From positions 53,047 to 117,046 of the forward strand of contig CABYZQ010000001.1 of the NCBI GenBank assembly GCA_902523535.1: 64,000 nucleotides of DNA, in the 5' to 3' direction. Under the pieces are notes generated by a model that saw only the letters and a program-made list of their open reading frames with translations, was not told the DNA's origin and did not search any database. Both the position numbers and the translations under genes were made by a program. Below, piece after piece: positions 10,311 to 64,000 of this stretch (the stretch's first letter is position 1; every line of letters begins with the position of its first letter). The stretch comes from an uncultured Pelagibacteraceae bacterium (GTDB lineage Bacteria > Pseudomonadota > Alphaproteobacteria > Pelagibacterales > AG-422-B15).

Positions 10311-10322
10311 ACTCGTCTAATT

Positions 10323-11969
10323 TTACATATTTGCATACTTTGGCCCACCTCCACCTTCAGGTGTCACCCAATTGATATTTTGCGACGGCTCTTTGATGTC
10401 ACACGTTTTGCAGTGAATACAATTTTGACTATTGATCACAAATCTAGGTGTTTCATTCTCATTATCTTGATGGACTTCGTAAACTCCTACAGGACAATAT
10501 CTTTGTGAAGGTTCGTCGTACTCGTTCAATGTATAACTTATCGGCAATTCACTATCTTTTAGTTGAAGGTGAACAGGTTGATTTTCTGTATGGTATGTGC
10601 CCGTCAAATAAACCGAGCTTGACCTATCAAAGGTTAGTACCCCGTCAGGCTTAGGGTATTGAATTTTTTTTGCGTCTTTAGCTTTGATAAGTGTTTCATG
10701 GTCAGCGTGCTTGTGGGATAAAGTGAATGGCATTTTTCCCCAAAACAACCATTGATCAATTCCTGCTAACATGACGCCTAACATTGTTCCAAATCTGGTA
10801 AAGAAAGGCTTCACGTTCCGTGCTGCATGAAGTTCTTTATAAAGCCAGCTACTATTAAATTTTTCCTCATAAACTGATAAATCAGACACTCTTTCGGAAA
10901 TAAATTCATTGATAGCTTCTGCGGCTAGAATTCCACTTTTCATAGCAGTATGCGATCCTTTAATCTTAGGCATGTTTAAAGTGCCGGCATCACATCCAAT
11001 AAGTAACGCACCTGGCATATACATTTTTGGTAAACTTTGAAGTCCACCTTCAATTAATGCTCTTGCTCCATATGAAATTCTTTTGCCACCAGATAACATT
11101 TTTTTAATGGCTGGATGTGTTTTAAATCTTTGAAATTCTTCAAAAGGTGAGAGATATGGGTTTGAGTAATCTAAGCCAATAACATACCCTAGATAAATTT
11201 GTTTATTTTCTGCATGGTAAACAAAGCTGCCACCGTAAGTATCATTTTCTAAAGGCCATCCAACTGAATGTAAAACCATTCCCTCGTCATGATTCTCTTC
11301 CGGAACTTCCCATATTTCTTTTAAACCAATTCCATATTGCTGAGGATCAGAATTCTCTGATAAATTAAATTTATTAATTAATTGTTTACCTAGATGACCT
11401 CTGCATCCTTCTGCAAACACAGTAACTTTGGCATGCAGTTCTATACCTGGTTCATATGAGTCTTTTTTTTCATTATTTATATCAAGACCCATATCATTTG
11501 TCGCAACACCTCTTACTTTCCCTTGCTCATCAAAAAGAATTTCTGAAGCTGCAAATCCAGGATATATCTCAACACCCATACCTTCAGCAACTTGCCCAAG
11601 CCATCTACATAAATTAGCAAGGCTGGTTATATAATTGCCTTTGTTATGTTGAACAGGAGGCAACAAAAATGATGGAACAGAGAAATAACTTTTTTCGGAT
11701 AGAACTAAAAATTTCTCTTTTGATACTTTGGTTTTTAAAGGACAGCCTTCCATAGACTGCCAGTCAGGTAATAGTTCATCTAGTGCTTTGGTTTCAAATA
11801 CGTTTCCACTCAAAATATGGGCTCCGACCTCTGAGGCCTTCTCAACTATGCACACGTTTGCATCAGCATTAATTTGCTTTAATTTGATAGCAGTTGCTAG
11901 ACCCGAGGGTCCCGCTCCGACGATAACTACGTCGTACTCCATCGTTTCTCTTTGAGTATCAGTCTCCAT
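10323..11969 (-). CDS. electron transfer flavoprotein-ubiquinone oxidoreductase (ETF-QO)
   Basis: FAD fold YDVVIVGAGPSGL; C-terminal 4Fe-4S region CPVGVYE...CIHCKTCDIKEP...GGGGPKY. Confidence 0.93.
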   Translation of the reverse strand: METDTQRETMEYDVVIVGAGPSGLATAIKLKQINADANVCIVEKASEVGAHILSGNVFETKALDELLPDWQSMEGCPLKTKVSKEKFLVLSEKSYFSVPSFLLPPVQHNKGNYITSLANLCRWLGQVAEGMGVEIYPGFAASEILFDEQGKVRGVATNDMGLDINNEKKDSYEPGIELHAKVTVFAEGCRGHLGKQLINKFNLSENSDPQQYGIGLKEIWEVPEENHDEGMVLHSVGWPLENDTYGGSFVYHAENKQIYLGYVIGLDYSNPYLSPFEEFQRFKTHPAIKKMLSGGKRISYGARALIEGGLQSLPKMYMPGALLIGCDAGTLNMPKIKGSHTAMKSGILAAEAINEFISERVSDLSVYEEKFNSSWLYKELHAARNVKPFFTRFGTMLGVMLAGIDQWLFWGKMPFTLSHKHADHETLIKAKDAKKIQYPKPDGVLTFDRSSSVYLTGTYHTENQPVHLQLKDSELPISYTLNEYDEPSQRYCPVGVYEVHQDNENETPRFVINSQNCIHCKTCDIKEPSQNINWVTPEGGGGPKYANM

Positions 11970-12015
11970 TATTAACTATATATTTAGTTTATAAGCATTA
12001 TAATTCAATTTGTTT

Positions 12016-12765
12016 ATGACGAAGTTAGATATTCAAAATACTATAAAACTACTAAATCAATATAAATTAAGCGGGGTTGATGAAAATATAGGAAATATGG
12101 CAAAAAATAGGTATGGAAAAGGAACAATAAAATCGCCTGATAAGCTCCAGTCAAAAGAAGAAATAGACTTTCCTCAGTATGAAATCGAAAAAGATATTCT
12201 CAATATTGATAGTCTAGAATCATTAAAAGAATACATGTCAAATTTTAAAGGCTGTGAACTTCATAAAAGCGCAACAAATATGGTCTTTTCAGATGGAAAC
12301 CCAAGTGCAAAAATCATGCTTATAGGTGAGGCTCCAGGTCATGATGAGGATATTCAAGGGAAGCCCTTTGTTGGAAGAAGTGGCAAGCTGTTGGATAAAA
12401 TGCTAGAGGCCATCGATCTAAATCGAGAGAAAGTTTACATTGCAAATATTGTTCCGTGGAGACCACCAAATAACAGAAGGCCAACAGACGAAGAGATTGA
12501 GATATGTTTACCAATGATAAAAAAGCATATTGAAATAGTAAATCCAAAAGCAATTTTGTTATTAGGAAGTACTGCTACTTATGCATTAATTAAAAATAAT
12601 GAGGGAATTACCAAGATTAGGGGAAAGTGGTTAGATATAGAAATTAATAAAAAAAAGTATCCGATACTACCTACATTCCACCCAGCTTTCTTGTTAAGAC
12701 AGCCAGCTCAAAAAAAGTTTTCTTGGGAAGATTTAAAAAGTTTAAAGAAAAAAGTAAAAATATAA
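12016..12765 (+). CDS. uracil-DNA glycosylase, family 4
   Basis: GEAPGHDED and HPAFLLRQP motifs. The ORF opens at TTG 12010; the ATG at 12016 is preferred. Confidence 0.88.
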   Translation: MTKLDIQNTIKLLNQYKLSGVDENIGNMAKNRYGKGTIKSPDKLQSKEEIDFPQYEIEKDILNIDSLESLKEYMSNFKGCELHKSATNMVFSDGNPSAKIMLIGEAPGHDEDIQGKPFVGRSGKLLDKMLEAIDLNREKVYIANIVPWRPPNNRRPTDEEIEICLPMIKKHIEIVNPKAILLLGSTATYALIKNNEGITKIRGKWLDIEINKKKYPILPTFHPAFLLRQPAQKKFSWEDLKSLKKKVKI

Positions 12766-12766
12766 A

Positions 12767-13372
12767 TTGAAATTTGACCCTCAGAAATTAATTGCTTTTG
12801 AAAATAACTTTTCCTTGCCCATTGCTGGTATTGATGAAGTTGGTAGAGGTCCACTTGCTGGTCCAGTAATTGCAGCAGCCGTAATACTTGATAGAAAAAA
12901 TATTCCAGAAGGAATTAATGACTCTAAAAAAATTCCTAAAGCTAAAAGAATATTGTTAGCGGAAAAGATAAAAGAGAATAGTATTTATGCCTATGGAGCC
13001 GCATCCGAGATAGAAATAGATGAGATCAATATCTTACAAGCTTCATTATTAGCAATGAAAAGAGCAAGTGACAGACTATCGGTCGTTCCGAAAACAACAC
13101 TTATCGATGGTAATTTCAAACCAGATATAAAAAACAACACCATTAGTATTATTAAAGGAGATAGTAAGTCTGTTTCGATTGCCGCAGCATCTATTCTAGC
13201 TAAAGTTTATAGAGACGAAATTATGCTTAAATATTCAAAGCAATTTCCAGAATATGGCTTTCAAACCAATTCAGGTTATGGAACAAAAGAGCACCTTTCA
13301 GCTCTAAAAAACTATGGAATTACCCCAATACATCGAAAATCTTTTAAACCTGTACACAATATATTGAATTAA
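12767..13372 (+). CDS. rnhB: ribonuclease HII
   Basis: GIDEVGRGPLAGPV and DSKK motifs; TTG start 1 nt after the udg stop. Confidence 0.93.
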   Translation: MKFDPQKLIAFENNFSLPIAGIDEVGRGPLAGPVIAAAVILDRKNIPEGINDSKKIPKAKRILLAEKIKENSIYAYGAASEIEIDEINILQASLLAMKRASDRLSVVPKTTLIDGNFKPDIKNNTISIIKGDSKSVSIAAASILAKVYRDEIMLKYSKQFPEYGFQTNSGYGTKEHLSALKNYGITPIHRKSFKPVHNILN

Positions 13373-55922: not shown

Positions 55923-56522
55923 TTATGCATCAACAAATGCATTAAAGGAAAAGCACCTTCTTTCTCCATCTCCTCTAAAAGGGTGAACGTCATGCATTAG
56001 AAATGATGGAAATATGTATAAATCTCCTACTCTGGGCTTAAAAGTCTCTCTATGTTTCACAAGCGGTGGGCTATTTCTTGGAAGAGACACTCGACCATCA
56101 AAGAAAGAAATTAATCCTGCTAAATCTTTTTCTTTATTACGCTTAATTGAACTCGGTATCTTTAAATACCCTACTCCACTAATATTACCTCTATGTAAAT
56201 GCGGTGGATTAAAATCTCCAGCAAATTGACTGACGATCCAAGCCTTTTCTATTCTTATTTTTTTAACTTTAATATTAAGTGTTTTGTCATAATAATCTTT
56301 TACAGACTCAATAATCTGTTTTTCAATTCCAATTTTTAAGATTTTTGAGGGTATCCTAAACTGCTGTTTCATGCTTCCCACTAATCTGTGATCATAGTCA
56401 TATCTTTTCGAAAGCCTTTTATTATTAGATACCTGTTCAGAAAATTTATTTAGGCGAGCAACTGCACTTAAAGTCAGTTTTGTTTTTCCGATTGTTGGTC
56501 CAAATGGTTTGTATATCTTCAT
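55923..56522 (-). CDS. putative 2OG-Fe(II) oxygenase (PF13759/TIGR02466-like family common in marine bacteria and their phages)
   Basis: NPPHLHRGNISGVGYL and IFPSFLMHDVHPF...RCFSFN match the family pattern from memory. Confidence 0.65.
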   Translation of the reverse strand: MKIYKPFGPTIGKTKLTLSAVARLNKFSEQVSNNKRLSKRYDYDHRLVGSMKQQFRIPSKILKIGIEKQIIESVKDYYDKTLNIKVKKIRIEKAWIVSQFAGDFNPPHLHRGNISGVGYLKIPSSIKRNKEKDLAGLISFFDGRVSLPRNSPPLVKHRETFKPRVGDLYIFPSFLMHDVHPFRGDGERRCFSFNAFVDA

Positions 56523-56630: not shown

Positions 56631-57053
56631 ATGCTTTTACTTAAGATACTAGAAAAATTAGGTAGGAAAAAGGTTGTTATGGATAGAGGTCCATCGCATC
56701 CTGAATATTGCTTAGCAAAACCTTGGACAGCAAGATATTACCTCTTATTCAGAAAAAGGCCTCGTTGGTTTCCTTTTAATATATTAATACATCATATTCT
56801 TGATGATGATCATGGTGTAGGTCTTCATAATCATCCTTTTCCATATATAACAATTATTGTTAGTGGAGGGTACTGGGAAACAGATATAAATAAAAATAAA
56901 ACCTGGAGAGGAAAATTCTATGTTGGATTTAGAAGTGCTGACAATCTGCACAGAGTTGACTTAGAGCCTGGGATCAAACCAGTCACCATTTATATTGCTG
57001 GTCCATACGGACTAAGAAAAAAAGGAAGAAGCAATTATGGCATTTCAAATTAA
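56631..57053 (+). CDS. hypothetical protein (140 aa) with His-rich HNHP motif, possibly cupin-like
   Basis: The ORF opens at 56592 inside the tRNA-Arg gene, so the ATG at 56631 is preferred. Contains ILIHHILDDDHGVGLHNHPFPY. Family not recognised. Confidence 0.5.
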   Translation: MLLLKILEKLGRKKVVMDRGPSHPEYCLAKPWTARYYLLFRKRPRWFPFNILIHHILDDDHGVGLHNHPFPYITIIVSGGYWETDINKNKTWRGKFYVGFRSADNLHRVDLEPGIKPVTIYIAGPYGLRKKGRSNYGISN

Positions 57054-57323
57054 TTTATTTCTTAGCTGAGATCTTAATTGTCTATCTTTTTTTAATTGTA
57101 CCTCTCTTTTCATTGCTTCTGATTTTGAGAATAACTCTTCTTGATATAACAATTTCCATTTAGATCCTCTTGTAAACTTTGCTCCCTTAGATTCATTATG
57201 TGCTTTAAGTCTTTTTTTAATATCATTACTCCATCCTACATATGTTTGTACTTTTGGGTATTTTGTTCCAATGATATAAACAAAGAATTTCATATTTCTT
57301 GATATATTAATTGTATTTGGCAT
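57045..57323 (-). CDS. GIY-YIG nuclease superfamily protein (UPF0213/YhbQ-like)
   Basis: FFVYIIG...TYVGWSNDIKKRLKAHN..KGAKFTRG...L.Y.E motif set. The real start may be the internal ATG at 57293 (MKFFVYII). Confidence 0.75.
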   Translation of the reverse strand: MPNTINISRNMKFFVYIIGTKYPKVQTYVGWSNDIKKRLKAHNESKGAKFTRGSKWKLLYQEELFSKSEAMKREVQLKKDRQLRSQLRNKLI

Positions 57324-57364
57324 TGAAATAAATATAGTATCTATAAATCAACAGGAGAATAAGC

Positions 57365-57481
57365 ATGCGTACTACTCTTACAGTTTTAGCTTTTAGTTTC
57401 ATGATTTCTGCTTGTACCACTTTACAAAGCATAAATGAGACAGTTAAGGGCGACGGTGTTCCTTATATTCCAGGAATATAA
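57365..57481 (+). CDS. 38-aa predicted lipoprotein (not in the ORF track)
   Basis: MRTTLTVLAFSFMISACTTLQSINETVKGDGVPYIPGI. Lipobox-like ISA|C after a hydrophobic signal. A strong AGGAGA Shine-Dalgarno sequence lies 7 nt upstream. Confidence 0.6.
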   Translation: MRTTLTVLAFSFMISACTTLQSINETVKGDGVPYIPGI

Positions 57482-57489
57482 AGATATTT

Positions 57490-57514
57490 AACTGGCCTCG
57501 TTATGGGGTCAGTT
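57490..57514 (+). terminator. plus-strand-specific 10-bp stem / 5-nt loop hairpin after the small lipoprotein gene (no U tract)
   Basis: AACUGGCCUC-GUUAU-GGGGUCAGUU with two G-U pairs, which would be A-C mismatches on the other strand. Relatively GC-rich for this DNA. Confidence 0.3.
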
Positions 57515-57582
57515 ACACCTTGTAATAATCAGTTAAAAAAGTTAATTGCCATATTCAGTTTCCATTAAGTATACTTATTTTG

Positions 57583-58710
57583 ATGTTTAAAGTACAAATC
57601 TCGGGAACTGGGCTATACACGCCCAAAGAAAAAATTTCTAACGAAGAATTAGTTGAATCGTACAATAAGTATGTGGATGAATATAATTTATCAAACTCTA
57701 GCGAGATAAATAATGGAAGTTTAGAGCCACTTGAAAAATCTAGCTCAGAGTTTATTGAAAAAGCATCAGGTGTAAAATCTAGATATGTTCAAAATAAATC
57801 AGGAATTTTAGATACATCCTTTATGCGTCCAAGACTTGTTGAAAGATCTGAAGATCAAATATCCAATCTTGCGGAAATGGGAGTAATTGCTGCAAAAGAA
57901 GCTATGAAGAATTCCCAAGTCGATATTAAAGATATAAATGCTGTAATTGTTGCATGCTCAAATTTAGAACGTGCCTACCCTGCTATAGCTATTGAAATCC
58001 AAAATGAATTAGGCATAGAGGGGTTTGCATTTGACATGAATGTTGCCTGTTCCTCAGCTACTTTTGGAATTCAAGCCATTTTTGATATGATAAAAAGTGG
58101 GAGTATTAAATCAGCCTTAATGGTCAACCCAGAAATTTGTACTGGTCATTTAAATTTCAAAGATAGGGATTGTCATTTTATATTTGGTGACGTTGCAACA
58201 GCTGTAGTTTTAGAAAGAATGAATGGGGAAATTCATAAAAACAATTCTTATGAAATACTTGGGACAAAGCTCCTTACAGAGTTTTCTAATAATATAAGAA
58301 ATAATTATGGATTTCTGAATAGTTCTTCTCCTGAAGGAATTGGTACGGCAGACAAACTGTTCCATCAAAATGGAAGAAAAGTATTTAAAGAAGTCATTCC
58401 TAAAGTTTCTAATTTAATAAAGGATCATTTGGAAGAGAATAAACTTTCAGCCGAAGATTTAAAGGGAATGTATTTGCATCAAGCAAATGAAAATATGAAT
58501 GTTCTTATTTCTAAATATGTACTTGGCAAAGAAGCGTCTAGAGATCTAGCTCCCGTCGTTCTTGATGAATATGCTAACACAAGTTCTGCAGGTTCAATAA
58601 TTGCTTTTCATAAACATAACAACTCACTAAAAAAAGATGATCTTGCAATAATTTGCTCTTTTGGGGCAGGTTATTCTGTGGGGAATGTTATTGTGAGAAA
58701 GATTGCTTAA
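57583..58710 (+). CDS. beta-ketoacyl-ACP synthase III family enzyme with an N-terminal insertion (PA3286-like subgroup)
   Basis: Cys-His-Asn triad contexts NVACSSATF, LHQANENMN and ANTSSAGS. The ISGTGLYTP N-terminus and SSEFIEKASGVKSRY insertion are also present. Confidence 0.8.
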   Translation: MFKVQISGTGLYTPKEKISNEELVESYNKYVDEYNLSNSSEINNGSLEPLEKSSSEFIEKASGVKSRYVQNKSGILDTSFMRPRLVERSEDQISNLAEMGVIAAKEAMKNSQVDIKDINAVIVACSNLERAYPAIAIEIQNELGIEGFAFDMNVACSSATFGIQAIFDMIKSGSIKSALMVNPEICTGHLNFKDRDCHFIFGDVATAVVLERMNGEIHKNNSYEILGTKLLTEFSNNIRNNYGFLNSSSPEGIGTADKLFHQNGRKVFKEVIPKVSNLIKDHLEENKLSAEDLKGMYLHQANENMNVLISKYVLGKEASRDLAPVVLDEYANTSSAGSIIAFHKHNNSLKKDDLAIICSFGAGYSVGNVIVRKIA

Positions 58711-59258
58711 AAAATTGGCTCCTTAGAGAAAAGCTTCCTTACTTTTGGTTCAAAGTATTCAAGAGAATAGGATTCATAATCTGGATCAAATGACTTTTGA
58801 TCCCACTTTTCACAAAAATCCACTGCATCTTGATAGTAAGGATGATCTTTAAATTTTTCTCTAGCATGTCGATCCCTCCCTATGTGATGAGCATAGTAAT
58901 ATTCTTGAAAAATCCCGTGATGAAGCATAATCCAATATACTTTTTCAGAGACATAGGGCCTTAAAACTGAGGCAACAAGTTGACTATGATTATATGGGGC
59001 AAGATTATCTCCAATATCGTGCACAAGAGTTGCCACCACCATTTCTTCATCTGCGCCATCTTTTTCAGCTCGAGTTGCTGATTGAAGTGAATGCTCTAAC
59101 CTTGTTACTTGATAACCATCAACTGAACTATCTAAATTTCTCAAAGCATCTAGTATTCTATCAGGAAGATCTTTTGAAAACTTTTCTTCATACTTACTTA
59201 AAAGATCATAATCTTCTTTTGTGCCATCTTTCATCTGAGTAAATTTTACTTTTTCCAT
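58707..59258 (-). CDS. HD-domain protein of the PhnZ/TmpB-like mixed-valent diiron oxygenase class (predicted)
   Basis: RLEHSLQSA, GADEEMVVATLVHDIGD, MLHHG and KWDQKSFD motifs; about 183 aa. The ATG directly abuts the stop of the upstream dioxygenase. Confidence 0.7.
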   Translation of the reverse strand: MEKVKFTQMKDGTKEDYDLLSKYEEKFSKDLPDRILDALRNLDSSVDGYQVTRLEHSLQSATRAEKDGADEEMVVATLVHDIGDNLAPYNHSQLVASVLRPYVSEKVYWIMLHHGIFQEYYYAHHIGRDRHAREKFKDHPYYQDAVDFCEKWDQKSFDPDYESYSLEYFEPKVRKLFSKEPIF

Positions 59259-60350
59259 TTATATTTCCTCTGATAATAATTTAAACTTACTTTCTGCGGA
59301 GTCATGGTCTATATATAATCCCTGCAGCCATCTATTGCCTTCAGCTGTATTATAACTTGTTCTGCCATGAAGTGTTCGATAATTATTCATAATAATTAAA
59401 TCTCCTGGCTCTAAGCGAAACTTAAATATATATTTAGAAGAATTTATCATTTTGTGCATCACTCTTTTTGACGCATAAAATTCATCAAGCTTTTTAGGGT
59501 CTTGATAAAAAACAAAATCCAGTCTGTTGCTATACTTTATTTGCTTTATCTCTCCTCGTTCACTTAACTTTATGATCTTACCTGTTTTTTCCAGTATAGC
59601 ATCTTTGTCTTTAAATTTAAAATTGATAAGAGTATTCGTAAGGGTATTAAACGCATTCGGATTTTCATTTTTTAAGTCTTCTACAACCTTAAACCCATCG
59701 ACAATTGTTGAGTCGCCTCCTTGGCAACTATTATTAATACAAAAAAGAAATTGAATAGAAGGTACTGGTTTTCGATATGGATTATCAGTATGAGACTCTA
59801 ATTCAATGGATGTATATGCTAAATCGTTTGGTTGTTTTTGAGACTTAACGTTAAACAATTTTCCAAAATTAGTTTCTCTAATATATCCAATTTTTTTTGC
59901 AAAATTTATAATCTCACCATCTTCGGGTTTGAGTTTGCTGACAATTGCAAATCCGTATCTATGATAATATTCTAATATCTCATAAATTTGTTTATTTTCA
60001 TTTGTATTATAATCAAATTTAAACTTTCTAAGTGAGATACTGTCTTTATTCCAAAAAACTTTATCAGGAAGTCCTTTGGCTCTCTTTATTTCTTTAATTA
60101 AGTTTTTTATGCAATACTTAGCTACATGATTATCTGAGAATTTAATTAATAGTTTATCTTCGTCTAACTTATTTACTTCTTTGATTTCTAAATTTTCAAT
60201 GATTTTCTCAGGGTCATATAGTCGTTGTAGTGAATTTTGATCGACTGCTCCTATTTCTAATGACCGTTCTCTCATCCATAAAGGATGGAGCTTATATTGC
60301 TCATCTCCAATAAAAAACCTTATTTCTTTTGAGTCATAATTAAAATTCAT
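59259..60350 (-). CDS. gamma-butyrobetaine-hydroxylase/TmpA-like Fe(II)/2-oxoglutarate dioxygenase
   Basis: TauD/BBOX fold with facial triad ELESHTDNPY ... RTLHGRT. N-terminal DUF971-like domain (HPLWMRERS) without Cys ligands. Confidence 0.8.
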   Translation of the reverse strand: MNFNYDSKEIRFFIGDEQYKLHPLWMRERSLEIGAVDQNSLQRLYDPEKIIENLEIKEVNKLDEDKLLIKFSDNHVAKYCIKNLIKEIKRAKGLPDKVFWNKDSISLRKFKFDYNTNENKQIYEILEYYHRYGFAIVSKLKPEDGEIINFAKKIGYIRETNFGKLFNVKSQKQPNDLAYTSIELESHTDNPYRKPVPSIQFLFCINNSCQGGDSTIVDGFKVVEDLKNENPNAFNTLTNTLINFKFKDKDAILEKTGKIIKLSERGEIKQIKYSNRLDFVFYQDPKKLDEFYASKRVMHKMINSSKYIFKFRLEPGDLIIMNNYRTLHGRTSYNTAEGNRWLQGLYIDHDSAESKFKLLSEEI

Positions 60351-60365
60351 AAAAAAAATATAAAA

Positions 60366-62312
60366 CTAATTTTTTAATTCTTCAATATTTTCATATTCCG
60401 ATAAACAAGCAGGATTAGCTAAGGCCTCTAAATTCTTTATTTTCATGCCATTGATTATATCTCGCACTGTAATTTCTGCTATTTTGCCACTTCTTGTTCT
60501 AGGTATATCACTTACTTTAATAATTTTTGCTGGTACATGTCTTATAGAATTAGAAGATCTAATATTATATTTAATTTTATCAATAATAACTTGATCAAGT
60601 TCAATATTCTTTTGAAGTTTCACAAATAGAATAATTCTTGTATCATTGTTCCAAGACTGACCAACCACAATAGATTCAACAATTTCATCTATTTGCTCGA
60701 CAGACCTATATATTTCGGCAGTTCCAATTCTAATTCCACCAGGATTTAATGTTGAGTCTGACCGTCCATAAATGACTATTCCATTATTTTGAGATATTTT
60801 GGCATAATCACCTTGTGTCCATACATTTTTAAATTTTGAAAAGTATGATTTAATATATTTCTCTTTATTTAAGTCATCCCAAAATCCAATCGGCATAGAT
60901 GGAAGCGGTGATTTACATACCAGCTCTCCTTTCTGAAGTGTACTCTGGCTTTTTTCATCAAATACATCTACGTTCACTCCAAGACACTTACTCTGTATTT
61001 CACCAGAGTAAACTGGCAACATTGGATTGCCCCCAACAAAGCAGGAAACAATGTCTGTCCCTCCACTAATGGACGCCAGATGTATATCTTTTTTAATGAA
61101 TTCGTAAACATACTCAAAACTCTCACTTATAAGTGGTGACCCTGTGCTCAATATTGATTGAAGTTTACCTAAATTATATTTTTCAAGAATATTGACCTTA
61201 TCATTTCTTAAAGCATCAATAAATTTTGCACTTGTTCCAAAGCACGTTATTTCTTCTTCCTCAGCAATTTTAAAAAGAGTTTCTTTCTCTGGATAAAATG
61301 GGGATCCATCATAAAGCACTAATGAAACTCCTGACGCTAAACCTGTAATAAGCCAATTCCACATCATCCAGCCACAGGTTGTATAATAAAATAATTTGTC
61401 ACCTATTTTTAGATCACAATGAAGCTGTTGCTCTTTTATATGTTGTAACAGTGGGCCACCGGTATTATGAACTATACATTTAGGCTTACCAGTTGTTCCA
61501 CTAGAATATAGAATATACATTGGGTCATTGAATAAGTTTTCTTCATAAATAATCTTTCCTTCATAAGTTTCTTTTTGGAAAATTGAACTTAAACTTATTC
61601 CTTCTATTTCTTTATCCTGTTTCTTGTCTGGATAATTAATACAAATAGTATGTTCGAGTGATTGAATTTTATTAATTACATTTTTTATCTTTTTTTCAAT
61701 ATCAAATTTTTTTCCACCATATAAATATATTTTAGAATATAATAATACTTTTGGTTTTATTTGATTAAAACGATCTAAAATAGCAACTTCACCAAAATCT
61801 GGTGAGCAAGATGACCATATTGCTCCAATAGAGTTCACCGCTAAAAATGCAATGAGTGTCTCAGCGCTGTTTACAGAAACAGCTACAACCCGATCTCCTT
61901 TCTTAACCCCAATAGACCTAAAATAGTTAGCTAATTTTGAAGTTTTTGATATTAAATCTTGCTTATAATAACTTTTCTTAAACCCAAGTTCATTGATAAA
62001 GGTGATCGGGCAGGAGTTAAGATTAGATAATATATTTTCGGCATAATTAACTTTAATATTTTTGAAAAATTCTTGGTTATATATAGATTTATCTTTTTCA
62101 ATAACAGGTCTGGAACTTCCTTTGAACTTTATGCCCAGATAATCAATTAAGCTTAGCCAAAATTCAGCGGGGTGATTAATACTCCACGACCAGATTTTAC
62201 TATAATCAAAGTTTAATTGTAATTTGTTGTTTTCTTCTAAAAAAATAAAATAATTATATAATTTTGTTTTTTCAATTCTTTCCTTAGATGGGCTCCAAAG
62301 CAACTTTGGCAT
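60366..62312 (-). CDS. acetoacetyl-CoA synthetase-like acyl-CoA ligase
   Basis: 648 aa; AACS-type N-terminus LWSPSKERIEKTKLYNYF...WSWSINHPAEFW; AMP motif YSSGTTGKPKCIVH. Confidence 0.82.
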   Translation of the reverse strand: MPKLLWSPSKERIEKTKLYNYFIFLEENNKLQLNFDYSKIWSWSINHPAEFWLSLIDYLGIKFKGSSRPVIEKDKSIYNQEFFKNIKVNYAENILSNLNSCPITFINELGFKKSYYKQDLISKTSKLANYFRSIGVKKGDRVVAVSVNSAETLIAFLAVNSIGAIWSSCSPDFGEVAILDRFNQIKPKVLLYSKIYLYGGKKFDIEKKIKNVINKIQSLEHTICINYPDKKQDKEIEGISLSSIFQKETYEGKIIYEENLFNDPMYILYSSGTTGKPKCIVHNTGGPLLQHIKEQQLHCDLKIGDKLFYYTTCGWMMWNWLITGLASGVSLVLYDGSPFYPEKETLFKIAEEEEITCFGTSAKFIDALRNDKVNILEKYNLGKLQSILSTGSPLISESFEYVYEFIKKDIHLASISGGTDIVSCFVGGNPMLPVYSGEIQSKCLGVNVDVFDEKSQSTLQKGELVCKSPLPSMPIGFWDDLNKEKYIKSYFSKFKNVWTQGDYAKISQNNGIVIYGRSDSTLNPGGIRIGTAEIYRSVEQIDEIVESIVVGQSWNNDTRIILFVKLQKNIELDQVIIDKIKYNIRSSNSIRHVPAKIIKVSDIPRTRSGKIAEITVRDIINGMKIKNLEALANPACLSEYENIEELKN

Positions 62313-62333
62313 ATTAAAAATTTTTATTATATC

Positions 62334-63758
62334 TTAAGCAATGTGAAGTGCTTTAGTTTCAAGGTAATCTTCTAGCCCCATGTCTCCACCTTCTCGTCCA
62401 TTGCCAGATTCCTTATATCCTCCAAAAGGTGAGCCGTAATTATAACCGCCACCATTAACATGAACACCGCCAGCTCTTAATTGCCTTGAGACTCGTTCTG
62501 CTCTTTCTTTATCTCCCGTCTGCAAATAGGCAGCAAGACCATAAGGAGTATCATTTGCTATTCTGATCGCCTCATCCTCGTCATCAAAAGGAATTATAAC
62601 CAGTACCGGACCAAATATTTCCTCTTGAGCAACTCTCATATTGTTATTTACGTCAGAAAAAATTGTTGGTTTTACAAACCATCCTTTTTCATGGCCATCG
62701 GGCTTTCCAAGGCCGCCTACTAATAGTTTTGCTCCTTCATCAATACCAACTTGAATCATATTTTGAACCCGATCAAATTGAATTTTATCAAAGAGTGGTC
62801 CAAGATGGTCACCATCCAGTGTCGGATCGCCTACCTTAATTTCTTCGGCAGTTTTTTTTGCAATATCAATTACTTCATCGTAGCATTTTTTTTCTACCAG
62901 TAACCTTGTAGGAGCATCACAAGATTGTCCTGTATTAAACATGCATTCATTTACTGAATCTTTTACTTTTTCATCTAAGTCACAATCTGCAAAGACAATG
63001 TTAGGCGATTTACCACCTAATTCTAAAGTTACTTTTTTTACAGTTTCAGCAGATTCAATAGTTACTGACTTACCTCCTCTTTTTGAGCCAGTGAATGACA
63101 TCATTTCTATATCTGGATGCCGAGACATTGACACACCTACTCCTTCTCCATCTCCATGTACTAAATTAAATACACCATCAGGAACTCCAGCCTCATCTAG
63201 AATTTCAGCGTAAACCATCGCTGATAAAGGTGTATGCTCAGATGGCTTTAAGATACATGTGCATCCTGTAGCAATCACTGGAAGGACTTTCAGTGTAATT
63301 TGATTAATGGGCCAGTTCCATGGAGTAATTAGGCCACAAACTCCTATTGGCTCTTTTAAAAGTACATCTGAATTAGAGAGAACAATTTTTTCTTCATGCT
63401 TCTTTAATGCATCAATAAAACCATCCAAGTGTCCTATTGCAGCATCTGCCTGTGCATCTCGAGCCATTCTATGAGGAGCTCCCATTTCTGATGTCATTGC
63501 ATTAGCAAGATCTTCAAATCTTTTTTCAGAGATCTGCCTAATTTTATTTAATAATTCTAAACGATCATTTTTTGAAGTTTTAGAAAAGGTATTAAATGCA
63601 TTTTTTGCAGCGCTCACAGCCATATCTACATCTTCAGAATTACCAAGAATTATCTCACCTATCAAATCTTCGGTTGCGGGGTTAAGAACTGCCATTGTTT
63701 TAGTTGAATTGGGTTTTACCCATTTACCGTTAATATAAAATTTTTGAAGATTTTCCAT
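62334..63758 (-). CDS. NAD(P)-dependent aldehyde dehydrogenase
   Basis: ITPWNWP, ELGGKSP, NTGQSCDA (catalytic Cys) and EEIFGPV motifs. Confidence 0.92.
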   Translation of the reverse strand: MENLQKFYINGKWVKPNSTKTMAVLNPATEDLIGEIILGNSEDVDMAVSAAKNAFNTFSKTSKNDRLELLNKIRQISEKRFEDLANAMTSEMGAPHRMARDAQADAAIGHLDGFIDALKKHEEKIVLSNSDVLLKEPIGVCGLITPWNWPINQITLKVLPVIATGCTCILKPSEHTPLSAMVYAEILDEAGVPDGVFNLVHGDGEGVGVSMSRHPDIEMMSFTGSKRGGKSVTIESAETVKKVTLELGGKSPNIVFADCDLDEKVKDSVNECMFNTGQSCDAPTRLLVEKKCYDEVIDIAKKTAEEIKVGDPTLDGDHLGPLFDKIQFDRVQNMIQVGIDEGAKLLVGGLGKPDGHEKGWFVKPTIFSDVNNNMRVAQEEIFGPVLVIIPFDDEDEAIRIANDTPYGLAAYLQTGDKERAERVSRQLRAGGVHVNGGGYNYGSPFGGYKESGNGREGGDMGLEDYLETKALHIA

Positions 63759-63827
63759 TTTGTTTTTTATTACATACTATACTATTCAAATTGTAAATTC
63801 TTTTTAATATTGTAACTTCATTGTCTT

Positions 63828-64000
63828 ATGAATAAAAATGTTATCATTTCTTGTGCAGTTACTGGATCGGGGGACTCAGTTGGAAAGCATCCTAATATTC
63901 CTGTTACTCCTCAACAAATAGCCGATGCCTCTATTGAGGCAGCTAATGCTGGAGCCGCTATAGCCCATATTCATGTTAGAAATCCTGAAACTGGAAAGGG
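63828..64000 (+). CDS. BKACE family (3-keto-5-aminohexanoate cleavage enzyme / DUF849) protein, 5' part only
   Basis: [57 protein letters not shown] matches the BKACE N-terminal TIM-barrel consensus. Truncated by the window end. Confidence 0.8.

What the first reader, a model, noticed from the sequence alone, without database searches (positions are those of the whole stretch)
58707..60350. Abutting BBOX/TmpA-like 2OG dioxygenase and PhnZ/TmpB-like HD-domain oxygenase: a candidate two-step oxidative bond-cleavage module
Seen in the sequence: the 363-aa dioxygenase (HTD...H triad, DUF971-like N-domain) ends in TAA and is followed directly by the ATG of a 183-aa HD protein (GAAATATAAATGGAA). 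The HD protein's motifs (RLEHSLQSA; GADEEMVVATLVHDIGD; MLHHG; KWDQKSFD) resemble, from my memory of PhnZ, the HD mixed-valent diiron oxygenases rather than HD phosphohydrolases. Established knowledge: PhnY/PhnZ converts 2-aminoethylphosphonate to glycine plus Pi. TmpA/TmpB converts 2-(trimethylammonio)ethylphosphonate to glycine betaine plus Pi, and TmpA had been misannotated as gamma-butyrobetaine hydroxylase. Inference: this pair hydroxylates and then oxidatively cleaves a quaternary-ammonium phosphonate, or a related compound. In a streamlined oligotroph that would yield both phosphate and a glycine/betaine source. The substrate cannot be read from the sequence and may differ from the two characterised systems.
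Basis: partly seen in the sequence, partly recalled or inferred. Interest (0 to 1): 0.78.

Follow-up and report, generated by a model that had tools for sequence, protein, structure and literature searches.

The report
Divergent TmpA/TmpB-like oxygenase pair, SAR11
Two abutting genes in a SAR11 marine bacterium encode a hydroxylase and a PhnZ/TmpB-like iron oxygenase of a distinct, very abundant and uncharacterised subfamily; they sit in a carnitine/betaine-degradation island, so they probably cleave a quaternary-ammonium compound other than a phosphonate.

Summary
On the minus strand, a 363-aa Fe/2OG dioxygenase (59259-60350) ends in TAA directly before the ATG of a 183-aa HD protein (58707-59258).

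- **Dioxygenase:** it is TmpA-like but scores below the TmpA and BBOX equivalog cut-offs.
- **HD protein:** it has all six diiron ligands, and its fold matches only PhnZ, TmpB and MIOX. It is not a TmpB or PhnZ orthologue (39-43 bits against cut-offs of 215-300). It lacks the YxxE loop and the His, Lys and Arg positions shared by PhnZ and TmpB.
- **Coupling:** this "HD-A" family is widespread. It is translationally coupled to a signature dioxygenase clade in many phyla and is fused to it in eukaryotes.
- **Separate from TmpAB:** HD-A pairs coexist in tandem with bona fide TmpA-TmpB in Halomonas urmiana.
- **Context:** in SAR11 the pair lies in a conserved island with an aldehyde dehydrogenase, acetoacetate-CoA ligase, BKACE, carnitine dehydrogenase, a second BBOX-like enzyme and a betaine ABC transporter.

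Best reading: a two-step hydroxylation and oxidative-cleavage module acting on a trimethylammonium compound, probably yielding glycine betaine. The bond cleaved is more likely C-C than C-P. The substrate is unknown.

HD-A is probably what marine surveys count as SAR11 "phnZ".

The parts
58707..59258 (-). HD-A: a 183-aa HD-domain protein, a candidate mixed-valent diiron oxygenase of a subfamily distinct from PhnZ/TmpB. Predicted ligands are H56, H80, D81, H91, H114 and D153. Family-specific residues are Y49, R53, D84, Q118, E150, Q154 and D158.
59259..60350 (-). DIOX1 (type A): a 363-aa TauD-family Fe(II)/2OG dioxygenase with a BBOX/TmpA-like fold. It has Fe ligands H187, D189 and H328, 2OG-binding Arg R340, and an aromatic cage of F162, F166, Y179 and Y346. 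Its signature motifs are N175-D176-LAY and Y273-S-N-R276-L-D278.
59250..59275 (-). Gene junction: the DIOX1 TAA stop abuts the HD ATG, with AGAGGA upstream, consistent with translational coupling.
   Evidence: The junction type is conserved in 12 loci.
60366..62312 (-). Acetoacetate-CoA ligase (648 aa), 15 bp upstream of DIOX1 on the same strand.
   Evidence: NF002937, 849 bits against a cut-off of 639. The gene order is conserved.
62334..63758 (-). NAD(P)-dependent aldehyde dehydrogenase (474 aa, BADH-like but below all equivalog cut-offs). It is the first gene of the putative four-gene operon.
   Evidence: An ALDH of the same cluster recurs near DIOX-A/HD-A in Halomonas, Steroidobacteraceae and another SAR11.
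63828..64000 (+). [quoted passage not shown] In matching contigs it is followed by an L-carnitine dehydrogenase-like gene, a second BBOX-like dioxygenase and a ProXWV-type betaine ABC transporter.
   Evidence: window; L001, L085-L089.
57580..58710 (+). Convergent FabH-like KAS III gene. Its stop overlaps the HD stop by 4 bp, which marks the downstream boundary of the operon.

Best explanation
The two genes encode a translationally coupled two-step oxygenase module. It forms part of a SAR11 island for catabolism of gamma-butyrobetaine/carnitine-type quaternary amines to glycine betaine.

Step 1 (inferred from homology): DIOX1 is a TmpA/BBOX-fold Fe(II)/2-oxoglutarate hydroxylase. It holds a trimethylammonium group in an aromatic cage and hydroxylates the carbon beta to the nitrogen.

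Step 2 (inferred): the HD protein is a PhnZ/TmpB/MIOX-like diiron oxygenase of a separate subfamily, here called HD-A. It binds the new hydroxyl on iron, activates O2, and performs a four-electron oxidative cleavage of the bond next to the carbinol carbon. The carbinol carbon is left as the carboxylate of glycine betaine.

The active site has lost the residues shared by the two phosphonate-cleaving enzymes and has become more acidic. True TmpAB coexists with this pair in other genomes. For both reasons the bond cleaved is more likely C-C than C-P. Examples would be beta-alanine betaine giving 2-hydroxy-beta-alanine betaine and then glycine betaine plus CO2, or gamma-butyrobetaine/carnitine giving glycine betaine plus a C2 acid.

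Shown: gene structure, homology, ligand conservation, subfamily separation, gene coupling and island content. Inferred: oxygenase chemistry, quaternary-amine substrate, glycine betaine product and C-C rather than C-P cleavage.
For: **HD protein resembles the diiron oxygenases**
- The six diiron ligands are conserved in 42 diverse relatives.
- They align to PhnZ H34/H58/D59/H80/H104/D161 and to the TmpB equivalents.
- The AlphaFold model (pLDDT 97.6) matches only PhnZ and TmpB (TM 0.62-0.70) and then MIOX. No hydrolase gave a comparable match.

**The two genes work together**
- A TauD-family gene is the commonest immediate neighbour of HD-A in 47 dereplicated loci.
- The stop and start abut or overlap in 12 loci across several lineages.
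- TauD(+GBBH_N)-HD-A fusion proteins exist in Saprolegnia, Dracoamoeba and uncultured organisms. Four of them carry the type-A dioxygenase signature.

**The pair is not TmpAB**
- NCBIfam scores are TmpB 39/300, PhnZ 43/215 and TmpA 337/400.
- PhnZ/TmpB Y..E, HDxGH, HxxxK and RxxD become V..Y, HDxGD, HxxxQ and ExxD, with two deletions.
- Y49, R53, D84 and Q118 are invariant in 81 HD-A sequences; E150 is present in 61 of 81 (H in 13, A in 7).
- Halomonas urmiana carries DIOX-A+HD-A directly next to true TmpA (62% identity) and TmpB (57% identity). Steroidobacteraceae loci also hold both pair types.

**Quaternary-amine context**
- The aromatic-cage positions are conserved.
- The island, conserved on five contigs, is OpuAC-type ABC transporter, BBOX-like DIOX2, L-carnitine dehydrogenase-like (380 bits against a cut-off of 414), BKACE, ALDH, acetoacetate-CoA ligase, DIOX1, HD.
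- Other HD-A loci sit next to thioesterase-BKACE-CDH, DMGDH, MttB-like, BHMT-like, BCCT and GbdR-like genes.
- No phosphonate or phosphate families appear among the top 25 neighbour families.

**Precedent**
- SmaO/SmaX shows a 2OG hydroxylase followed by HD-enzyme C-C cleavage (PMC12186529).
Against: - There are no biochemical data for any member of this family.
- DIOX1 scores higher on TmpA than on BBOX (337 against 289 bits). It keeps an Arg (R276) present in TmpA-type but not BBOX-type enzymes. From my memory this is the phosphonate-binding Arg288 of TmpA.
- Bona fide tmpAB operons also lack phosphorus-specific neighbours, having only a LysR regulator. Context therefore cannot exclude a phosphonate.
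- One locus (L022) has a PhoX-like gene nearby.
- The tandem arrangement with tmpAB could mean a related phosphonate substrate, for example a differently methylated AEP.
- The invariant R53 of HD-A could bind an anion.
- The roles I assign to PhnZ H62, K108 and R158 rest on memory. Only their conservation in PhnZ/TmpB-type sequences is shown here.
- Most HD-A genes (63 of 81) have no adjacent dioxygenase. The substrate of HD-A may therefore not need DIOX at all.
- The DIOX1 model is only moderate (pLDDT 81) and is poor at residues 174-177.
Confidence: 0.45

Rival explanations
1. The pair is a functional TmpA/TmpB analogue. It hydroxylates and then oxidatively cleaves the C-P bond of 2-(trimethylammonio)ethylphosphonate or a related aminophosphonate (for example N-methylated AEPs), giving glycine betaine or an analogue plus phosphate.
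For: TmpA is the best structural and family match of DIOX1. R276, the TmpA-type Arg, is retained. PhnZ and TmpB are the closest solved relatives of the HD protein. The product, glycine betaine, would fit the island. The pair lies in tandem with tmpAB in Halomonas urmiana and Steroidobacteraceae. There is a PhoX-like neighbour in L022. True tmpAB also lacks phosphorus-specific neighbours.
Against: The HD protein lacks the YxxE loop and the His/Lys/Arg positions conserved in every PhnZ/TmpB-type sequence examined. In their place it has conserved Asp/Gln/Glu residues. Both proteins fall below the equivalog cut-offs, the HD protein by a wide margin. Coexistence with true TmpAB argues against redundancy. 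HD-A commonly stands alone, next to carnitine genes or housekeeping genes. Neighbours are not enriched in phosphorus-acquisition genes.
Confidence: 0.2
2. HD-A acts on a naturally occurring hydroxy compound independently of DIOX1. DIOX1 is simply a second gamma-butyrobetaine hydroxylase feeding it. One version is L-carnitine cleaved to glycine betaine plus glycolate or glyoxylate. Another is a direct four-electron oxidation of choline. This is a sub-case of the general module, with carnitine as the shared intermediate.
For: The HD-A active-site residues are identical whether or not a dioxygenase is adjacent. 63 of 81 loci have no adjacent dioxygenase. HD-A lies next to thioesterase-BKACE-CDH without a dioxygenase in four loci. 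L073 shows a dioxygenase inserted beside an HD of the otherwise stand-alone SAR11 clade.
Against: The island already has a BBOX-like DIOX2 beside CDH and BKACE. A second carnitine route would be redundant in a streamlined genome. D176 in DIOX1 replaces the carboxylate-binding Asn of BBOX. Unlinked genomes might carry the dioxygenase elsewhere, which was not testable here.
Confidence: 0.15
3. The HD protein is a metal-dependent phosphohydrolase, as publicly annotated ('predicted HD phosphohydrolase'), or another non-oxygenase HD enzyme. Its adjacency to the dioxygenase would then reflect a hydrolytic step, for example on a phosphoester released or exposed by hydroxylation of phosphocholine or glycerophosphocholine.
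For: Dinuclear HD hydrolases use the same H...HD...H...H...D motif (PMC8177086). The public names say so. Hydroxylation of the O-linked carbon of choline esters would by itself yield betaine aldehyde, which would fit the ALDH.
Against: Only PhnZ, TmpB and MIOX give significant fold matches. The hhalign probability to TmpB is 98%. There are no hits to hydrolase families in Pfam or NCBIfam. The family is repeatedly fused or coupled to hydroxylases, both TauD and FA_hydroxylase, which is the pattern seen for oxidative-cleavage partners.
Confidence: 0.1

Closest known systems
TmpA/TmpB of Leisingera caerulea (PDB 6NPB-D, 6NPA; NCBIfam NF049936, NF049941)
   Same: Both are a two-gene unit with the dioxygenase first and the HD protein second, tightly coupled. 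The dioxygenase has the same fold (TM 0.78, 29-32% identity), the same HxD...H+Arg set, the aromatic cage and the TmpA-type Arg. The HD protein has the same six ligands and fold (TM 0.62-0.66, about 23-26% identity).
   Different: Both proteins fall below the equivalog cut-offs (337/400 and 39/300). The HD protein lacks the YxxE loop, HDxGH, HxxxK and RxxD, and has two deletions. The dioxygenase has D176 and S274 and an RLD motif instead of N, N and RSS. The pair coexists side by side with true TmpAB in Halomonas urmiana. It lies in a carnitine/betaine island.
PhnY*/PhnZ (2-AEP oxidative pathway; PDB 4MLM/4N6W; TIGR03276) and G. maris PhnY*/PhnZ1
   Same: The logic is the same: a hydroxylase followed by an HD diiron oxygenase. 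PhnZ is the best fold match of the HD protein (TM 0.69).
   Different: The partner hydroxylase is of a different family (PhnY* is not a BBOX/TauD-type enzyme with a GBBH-like N-domain). Scores are 43/215 and 31/300 bits. The substrate-binding positions differ as for TmpB.
SmaO/SmaX (Asp to beta-hydroxy-Asp to aminomalonate; PMC12186529)
   Same: An Fe/2OG hydroxylase is followed by an HD-domain enzyme that oxidatively cleaves a C-C bond next to the new hydroxyl. This is the precedent for replacing C-P with C-C.
   Different: SmaX uses a single Fe with a reduced ligand set (2 His + Asn) and acts on a peptide. HD-A keeps the full diiron ligand set and is a small-molecule catabolic enzyme by context.
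myo-Inositol oxygenase (MIOX, PDB 2HUO)
   Same: It is an HD diiron oxygenase that cleaves a C-C bond without a partner hydroxylase. It gives a significant fold match (probability 1.0, TMq 0.55). It offers a model for stand-alone HD-A genes.
   Different: It is much larger (258 residues in the solved chain), shows 14% identity and has HDLGK chemistry. There is no sequence-level match.
PhoF of Fonsecaea multimorphosa (fused PhnY-PhnZ; described in review PMC10574752)
   Same: It is a eukaryotic fusion of a 2OG hydroxylase with an HD oxygenase, like the Saprolegnia and Dracoamoeba TauD-HD-A fusions.
   Different: PhoF is described as PhnY-like plus PhnZ-like and degrades aminophosphonates. The fusions found here are GBBH_N/TauD-type plus HD-A-type. 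I did not compare the PhoF sequence.
Bacterial carnitine pathway (BBOX, carnitine dehydrogenase, BKACE, thioesterase) and the Arctic SAR11 island (PMC12421898)
   Same: The same gene set surrounds the pair: two BBOX-like genes, CDH, BKACE, ALDH and a betaine ABC transporter. Acetoacetate-CoA ligase fits the acetoacetate made by BKACE.
   Different: No HD protein is part of the described pathway or is listed among the 17 genes of the Arctic island. The role of DIOX1+HD within it is new.

Membership tests
TmpB, (R)-1-hydroxy-2-trimethylaminoethylphosphonate oxygenase (NF049941) | Scores above the curated equivalog cut-off (300 bits). | tested here: not met
   39.3 bits, with only residues 46-85 aligned. 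Other HD-A members score 31-34 bits.
TmpB / PhnZ | YxxE substrate-gating loop (PhnZ Y24/E27, TmpB Y30/E33; role described in PMC8177086). | tested here: not met
   The aligned positions are V46 and Y49. Position 49 is Y in 81 of 81 HD-A sequences. Position 46 is variable.
TmpB / PhnZ | His after the HD dyad (HDxGH), Lys four residues after the fifth ligand (HxxxK), and Arg three residues before the last Asp (RxxD). All three are conserved in every PhnZ/TmpB-type sequence examined. | tested here: not met
   The equivalents are D84, Q118 and E150. D84 and Q118 are invariant in 81 HD-A sequences and E150 is present in 61 of 81. The functional role of these residues in PhnZ is from memory.
PhnZ (TIGR03276) | Scores above the cut-off (214.6 bits) and is partnered with a PhnY*-type hydroxylase. 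| tested here: not met
   42.9 bits. The partner is a TauD/BBOX-type enzyme.
[quoted passage not shown] | H...HD...H...H...D ligand set. | tested here: met
   H56, H80, D81, H91, H114 and D153 are at least 90% conserved in 42 diverse relatives and align to the PhnZ and TmpB ligands. This feature is not exclusive to oxygenases (PMC8177086).
[quoted passage not shown] | Fold closest to known members rather than to HD hydrolases. | tested here: met
   The top 10 Foldseek hits are all PhnZ or TmpB (E 7e-7 to 3e-5). MIOX has probability 1.0. Hydrolases have TMq at or below 0.44 and E of 0.24 or higher.
[quoted passage not shown] | Fe(II)/Fe(III) cofactor and O2-dependent four-electron bond cleavage. 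| not testable with these tools
   This needs EPR or Moessbauer spectroscopy and activity assays.
TmpA, 2-trimethylaminoethylphosphonate dioxygenase (NF049936) | Scores above the curated equivalog cut-off (400 bits). | tested here: not met
   337 bits. All HD-A-linked dioxygenases score 316-363 bits. By contrast, L015:11618-12724, beside the H. urmiana pair, is 62% identical to Leisingera TmpA.
TmpA / BBOX fold family | HxD...H iron triad, 2OG-binding Arg, and an aromatic cage for the trimethylammonium group. | tested here: met
   H187, D189, H328 and R340 are present, with F162, F166, Y179 and Y346 at BBOX Y177/W181/Y194/Y366. Fold TM is 0.78 to TmpA and 0.75 to BBOX.
TmpA | Anion-site motif xTNLAY ... 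FNNRSS. | tested here: not met
   DIOX1 has PNDLAY and YSNRLD. The type-A clade consensus is xDLAY / [YF]S[PN]RLD. Only the Arg is kept.
Gamma-butyrobetaine dioxygenase, BBOX (TIGR02409) | Above the cut-off (414.75 bits), with carboxylate-binding Asn191/Asn292 and an N-terminal Cys3His zinc site. | tested here: not met
   289 bits. The Asn equivalents are D176 and S274. There are no Cys residues in the aligned N-terminal segment (LWMRERSLEIGAV against VWLRDNCPCSDCY).
Carnitine/gamma-butyrobetaine catabolic gene cluster (CDH + BKACE) | Co-location with carnitine dehydrogenase and a BKACE. | tested here: met
   The BKACE N-terminus lies at window 63828-64000. Matching contigs carry BKACE (Pfam 320 bits) and a CDH-like gene (380 bits against a cut-off of 414, so just below) followed by BBOX-like DIOX2.

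The most novel reading that the evidence does not exclude
HD-A is a new functional class of HD-domain diiron oxygenase that cleaves a C-C bond of a hydroxylated quaternary amine to make glycine betaine. The substrate could be 2-hydroxy-beta-alanine betaine, carnitine or a hydroxylated trimethyl-amino acid. It would work either with its dedicated TmpA-like hydroxylase or alone. As a corollary, the SAR11 'phnZ' that dominates marine metagenome surveys of phosphonate catabolism would not be a phosphonate enzyme at all.
Probability: 0.35. Interest if true: 0.8.

Novelty: new variant of a known kind. Interest (0 to 1): 0.64.

Why it matters
**Enzymology.** Only a handful of HD-domain oxygenases are characterised: MIOX, PhnZ, PhnZ1, TmpB, PhoF and the atypical SmaX. 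A large, sharply defined sister family with a different active site and its own partner hydroxylase would extend the chemistry of this cofactor.

**Marine biogeochemistry.**
- One global survey defined phnZ by COG4341/TIGR00277. It found Pelagibacterales to be 45% of marine phnZ and phnZ to be the dominant route of phosphonate remineralisation (PMC9381506).
- A subclade-aware study found true AEP-specific phnZ to be rare (PMC8316502).
- The SAR11 proteins studied here carry the JGI name 'predicted HD phosphohydrolase', which from my knowledge is the COG4341 name.
- If they do not cleave C-P bonds, estimates of oceanic phosphonate catabolism need revising.

**SAR11 physiology.** The pair would define a new entry point into glycine betaine, a glycine and methyl source for these auxotrophic cells.

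Tried and rejected
- **Primary papers not held.** I tried to read the papers on TmpAB and PhnZ (PMC6503667, PMC3839769, PMC3986159), but none is held. The roles of PhnZ H62/K108/R158 and TmpA Arg288 therefore rest on memory.
- **Literature searches.** Searches for this family in SAR11, carnitine or HD-oxygenase contexts found no characterisation.
- **Genome scan.** The first scan with the 42-sequence alignment failed because no conserved stretch was found. It was repeated with 11 sequences.
- **Promoters and terminators.** The scan of 57300-64000 gave 30 promoter-like sites against 32.5 expected and 5 terminator-like sites against 3.0. It is uninformative.
- **Base composition.** GC is uniform at 0.29-0.36, with no sign of recent transfer.
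- **Structure prediction.** The DIOX1 model was built on TmpA homologues instead, so it may lean towards TmpA.
- **Active-site geometry.** Model coordinates are not exposed, so no docking or pocket analysis was possible.
- **Rejected: orthologue of TmpB or PhnZ.** It fails four of five tests.
- **Rejected: nucleotidase or (p)ppGpp-hydrolase-type HD protein.** There is no family or fold support.
- **Rejected: chance adjacency.** Fusions and conserved coupling rule it out.
- **Considered but unresolved: trimethyllysine-type substrates.** DIOX1 scores lowest on the TMLD model (183 bits against a cut-off of 268).

Full report
**1. Observation**

Two ORFs lie head to tail on the minus strand: 59259-60350 (363 aa) and 58707-59258 (183 aa). 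The sequence at the junction reads AGAGGAAATATAAATGGAA, so the TAA stop of the first gene is followed at once by the ATG of the second, with a Shine-Dalgarno-like AGAGGA upstream.

Upstream on the same strand lie two more genes. An acetoacetate-CoA ligase occupies 60366-62312, with a 15 bp gap to the dioxygenase. An aldehyde dehydrogenase occupies 62334-63758, with a 21 bp gap to the ligase. Downstream, a convergent FabH-like gene overlaps the HD stop by 4 bp.

The organism is a Pelagibacteraceae (SAR11) bacterium, judging from the names attached to near-identical proteins. GC content is a uniform 0.29-0.36.

**2. The dioxygenase (DIOX1)**

DIOX1 is a TauD-family protein (Pfam E = 8e-40). Its hit to the GBBH-like N-terminal domain is sub-threshold.

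| NCBIfam model | Score (bits) | Cut-off (bits) |
|---|---|---|
| TmpA | 337 | 400 |
| Gamma-butyrobetaine dioxygenase (BBOX) | 289 | 415 |
| Trimethyllysine dioxygenase | 183 | 268 |

All three scores are below their equivalog cut-offs. The closest solved structures are TmpA (E = 6e-57) and human BBOX (E = 4e-44).

A moderate AlphaFold model (pLDDT 81) superposes on TmpA with TM 0.78 and on BBOX with TM 0.75. The model was built from an alignment of TmpA homologues, so it may lean towards TmpA.

The iron triad is H187/D189/H328 and the 2OG-binding Arg is R340. Aromatic residues occupy the BBOX cage positions: F162, F166, Y179 and Y346. This fits a trimethylammonium-type substrate.

At the site where BBOX holds the substrate carboxylate with Asn191 and Asn292, DIOX1 has D176 and S274. 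It keeps an Arg (R276) that TmpA-type enzymes have and BBOX-type enzymes lack. From memory, this is the phosphonate-binding Arg288 of TmpA.

**3. The HD protein**

Pfam gives only a sub-threshold HD hit. NCBIfam gives PhnZ 43 bits (cut-off 215), TmpB 39 bits (cut-off 300) and PhnZ1 31 bits (cut-off 300), each over about 40-60 residues.

An exhaustive search of 1.84 billion cluster representatives found 2293 relatives, 236 of them below 1e-30.

In an alignment of 42 diverse members, H56, H80, D81, H91, H114 and D153 are conserved at 90% or more. Profile alignments place them on the PhnZ ligands H34, H58, D59, H80, H104 and D161 and on the TmpB equivalents. The hhalign probability to TmpB is 98%, at 26% identity.

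The AlphaFold model is very confident (pLDDT 97.6). Its Foldseek matches in the PDB are PhnZ and TmpB only (TM 0.62-0.70), then a gap, then MIOX (probability 1.0). HD hydrolases are not significant. The HD protein therefore belongs with the diiron oxygenases by descent and fold. The ligand motif alone would not prove oxygenase chemistry, because dinuclear HD hydrolases share it (PMC8177086).

**4. It is not TmpB or PhnZ**

I retrieved full TmpA-TmpB pairs from Leisingera and Ruegeria and TmpB-like genes from three other loci. Every PhnZ/TmpB-type sequence conserves four features, and the family studied here ("HD-A") differs at each.

| Feature | PhnZ/TmpB type | HD-A |
|---|---|---|
| Gating loop before the first ligand | Y-x-G-E | V46...Y49 |
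| After the HD dyad | HDxGH | HDxGD (D84) |
| After the fifth ligand | HVAAKRY (Lys) | HHGxFQ (Q118) |
| Before the last Asp | VRxxD (Arg) | FCExWDQxSFD (E150) |

HD-A also has an 11-residue and a roughly 19-residue deletion.

Among 81 HD-A sequences of at least 55% identity, Y49, R53, D84, Q118, Q154, F157 and D158 are invariant. The review confirms that the Tyr and Glu of the YxxE loop gate O2 access and bind the substrate amine. I recall the His, Lys and Arg as phosphonate or hydroxyl contacts, but I could not check this. The net change is a clearly more acidic pocket, which argues against a dianionic phosphonate.

**5. The two genes work together**

A scan of one genome per species returned 80 loci from many lineages. 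These include SAR11, Halomonas, Marinomonas, Alteromonas, Arenicellales, Steroidobacteraceae, Acidobacteriota, Actinomycetota, Dehalococcoidia, Spirochaetia, Gemmatimonadota and SAR324.

A BBOX/TmpA-like dioxygenase lies directly upstream of the HD gene in 12 loci and within 3.5 kb in 17. In all 12, stop and start abut, overlap or are separated by about 10 nt. TauD is the commonest family among immediate neighbours in 47 dereplicated loci.

These partner dioxygenases form their own clade (type A), marked by the signature xDLAY ... [YF]S[PN]RLD. They score 316-363 bits on the TmpA model.

Proteins of 596-701 aa fuse a TauD domain, often with GBBH_N, to an HD-A domain. Named examples come from Saprolegnia and Dracoamoeba. 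Four uncultured examples carry the type-A signature. An FA_hydroxylase-HD-A fusion occurs in Mantoniella.

**6. Coexistence with true TmpAB**

In Halomonas urmiana (L015), the type-A dioxygenase and HD-A occupy 8858-10546. They are followed by a TmpA orthologue (11618-12724, 62% identity to Leisingera TmpA) and a TmpB orthologue (12742-13293, 57% identity).

Two Steroidobacteraceae loci likewise hold a type-A/HD-A pair and a second dioxygenase with a TmpB-like HD. Two systems side by side argue for different, though probably related, substrates.

**7. Genomic setting in SAR11**

The window ends inside a BKACE gene (63828-64000, plus strand). Five independent contigs carrying 93-98% identical HD proteins show the full gene order:

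- an OpuAC-type binding protein, permease and ATPase (ProXWV-like);
- on the opposite strand, a second dioxygenase (DIOX2), an L-carnitine dehydrogenase-like gene and BKACE;
- divergently, ALDH, acetoacetate-CoA ligase, DIOX1 and HD.

DIOX2 scores higher on BBOX (307 bits) than on TmpA (270 bits). The carnitine dehydrogenase-like gene scores 380 bits against a cut-off of 414.

From established knowledge, carnitine dehydrogenase plus BKACE convert carnitine to acetoacetate and betainyl-CoA. This accounts for the acetoacetate-CoA ligase and ties the two divergent operons together.

Elsewhere, HD-A lies next to several kinds of genes:

- thioesterase-BKACE-CDH (L019, L020, L030, L071);
- dimethylglycine dehydrogenase-like and MttB-like genes (L033, L058, L065);
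- a BHMT-like methyltransferase (L073);
- a BCCT transporter (L008);
- a GbdR/CdhR-like regulator (L009);
- a DgcA-like flavoprotein and GFA (L078);
- class II aldolases.

No phosphonate or phosphate-acquisition family is among the 25 commonest neighbour families. One locus has a PhoX-like gene. Bona fide tmpAB operons also have only a LysR neighbour, so context alone does not exclude a phosphonate.

**8. Stand-alone copies**

In 26 SAR11 species genomes, an HD-A of about 60% identity sits between purF and gshA/gshB with no dioxygenase nearby. In a neighbour-joining tree, the dioxygenase-linked HD of SAR11 L073 nests inside this clade, and linked and unlinked genes intermix elsewhere. The active-site residues are the same in both groups.

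Two readings are possible. The dioxygenase may be encoded elsewhere in those genomes, which I could not test. Alternatively, HD-A may act on a hydroxy compound that is also available without the hydroxylase. Carnitine is the obvious candidate.

**9. Mechanism proposed**

DIOX1 hydroxylates the carbon beta to a trimethylammonium nitrogen. HD-A binds the alcohol on its diiron site, activates O2, and cleaves the adjacent bond in a four-electron oxidation. This leaves glycine betaine, which SAR11 demethylates to glycine.

Candidate substrates, in my order of preference:

1. Beta-alanine betaine, the exact carboxylate analogue of TMAEP. The products would be glycine betaine and CO2. SmaO/SmaX is a precedent for this chemistry, and beta-alanine betaine is a detected marine metabolite.
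2. Gamma-butyrobetaine or carnitine.
3. A trimethylammonium compound with a zwitterionic tail. This would fit the D176/R276/D278 and R53/D84/E150 sets.
4. TMAEP or an N-methylated relative.

None of these can be decided from sequence.

**10. Comparison, novelty and significance**

The pair works like TmpA/TmpB and PhnY*/PhnZ but fails their membership tests. It is best filed as a new variant: a sister subfamily of HD diiron oxygenases with a dedicated dioxygenase clade. I found no characterisation of it in the searchable literature.

Public annotation calls the two proteins "gamma-butyrobetaine dioxygenase" and "predicted HD phosphohydrolase".

A global survey that defined phnZ by COG4341/TIGR00277 attributed 45% of marine phnZ to Pelagibacterales. 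It concluded that phnZ is the dominant phosphonate-catabolic route. A subclade-aware study found true AEP-phnZ to be rare. If HD-A is what was counted, which is an inference from the annotation name, then resolving its substrate bears directly on estimates of the marine phosphorus redox cycle.

**11. Verdict**

| Reading | Confidence |
|---|---|
| Coupled two-step oxygenase module on a quaternary amine other than a phosphonate | about 0.45 |
| HD-A acting on a pre-existing hydroxy compound such as carnitine | about 0.15 |
| Hydrolase | about 0.1 |

Interest is 0.64.

Noticed in passing
window 63828-64000 (+); continued in L001:2434-5432 and L085-L089: The window ends inside a BKACE gene. In matching contigs it is followed by an L-carnitine dehydrogenase-like gene, a second BBOX-like dioxygenase (DIOX2, which scores higher on BBOX than on TmpA) and a ProXWV/OpuAC betaine ABC transporter. 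Together with the four-gene operon this forms a conserved island of about 10 kb.
   Followed up: yes
L003, L006, L007, L011-L013, L021 and others (about 10001-10550 in each): Most SAR11 species genomes carry a stand-alone HD-A gene of about 60% identity between cvpA-purF and gshA-gshB. No dioxygenase is adjacent, and the active-site residues are identical to those of the window copy. Its role is unexplained.
   Followed up: partly
L015:8858-13293 (Halomonas urmiana TBZ3): A type-A dioxygenase plus HD-A lies in tandem with a bona fide TmpA (62% identity) plus TmpB (57% identity), followed by a DAO-family flavoenzyme. This is a natural test bed for separating the two systems genetically.
   Followed up: partly
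P0198/P0273 (Saprolegnia), P0139 (Dracoamoeba), P0143, P0197, P0211, P0228; P0147/P0275 (Mantoniella): Eukaryotic and uncultured fusion proteins join GBBH_N-TauD to HD-A. A separate fusion joins a fatty-acid-hydroxylase-superfamily domain to HD-A in a prasinophyte. HD-A is also fused to an NAD-dependent epimerase (P0170).
   Followed up: partly
L078:4669-16378 and L042 (Steroidobacteraceae MAGs): One locus combines an AraC regulator, a DgcA-like Oxidored_FMN flavoprotein, GFA, HD-A, a HIBADH-like dehydrogenase, GntR, a type-A dioxygenase, an MFS transporter and a further dioxygenase with a TmpB-like HD. This gives two hydroxylase/HD pairs within one methylamine-catabolic cluster.
   Followed up: partly
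L040, L045, L063 (gene immediately upstream of the HD): A class II aldolase/adducin-family protein (PRK07490-type, 382 bits) is the second commonest immediate neighbour of HD-A. The same family is listed in the Arctic SAR11 carnitine island (PMC12421898). Its function in this context is unknown.
   Followed up: no
literature: PMC9381506 supplement; PMC8316502: Marine 'phnZ' abundance estimates based on COG4341/TIGR00277 probably include the SAR11 HD-A family, since Pelagibacterales make up 45% of marine phnZ. This may explain the large disagreement between surveys.
   Followed up: partly
window 55923-56522 (-) and 57045-57323 (-): A 199-aa 2OG-FeII_Oxy_5 family protein and a 92-aa GIY-YIG-domain protein lie just downstream of the FabH-like gene. 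Both are conserved in the same position on the matching contigs. They appear unrelated to the island.
   Followed up: no
window 58707-58710: The stop codons of the HD gene (minus strand) and the convergent FabH-like gene (plus strand) overlap by 4 bp. No intergenic terminator is possible there.
   Followed up: no
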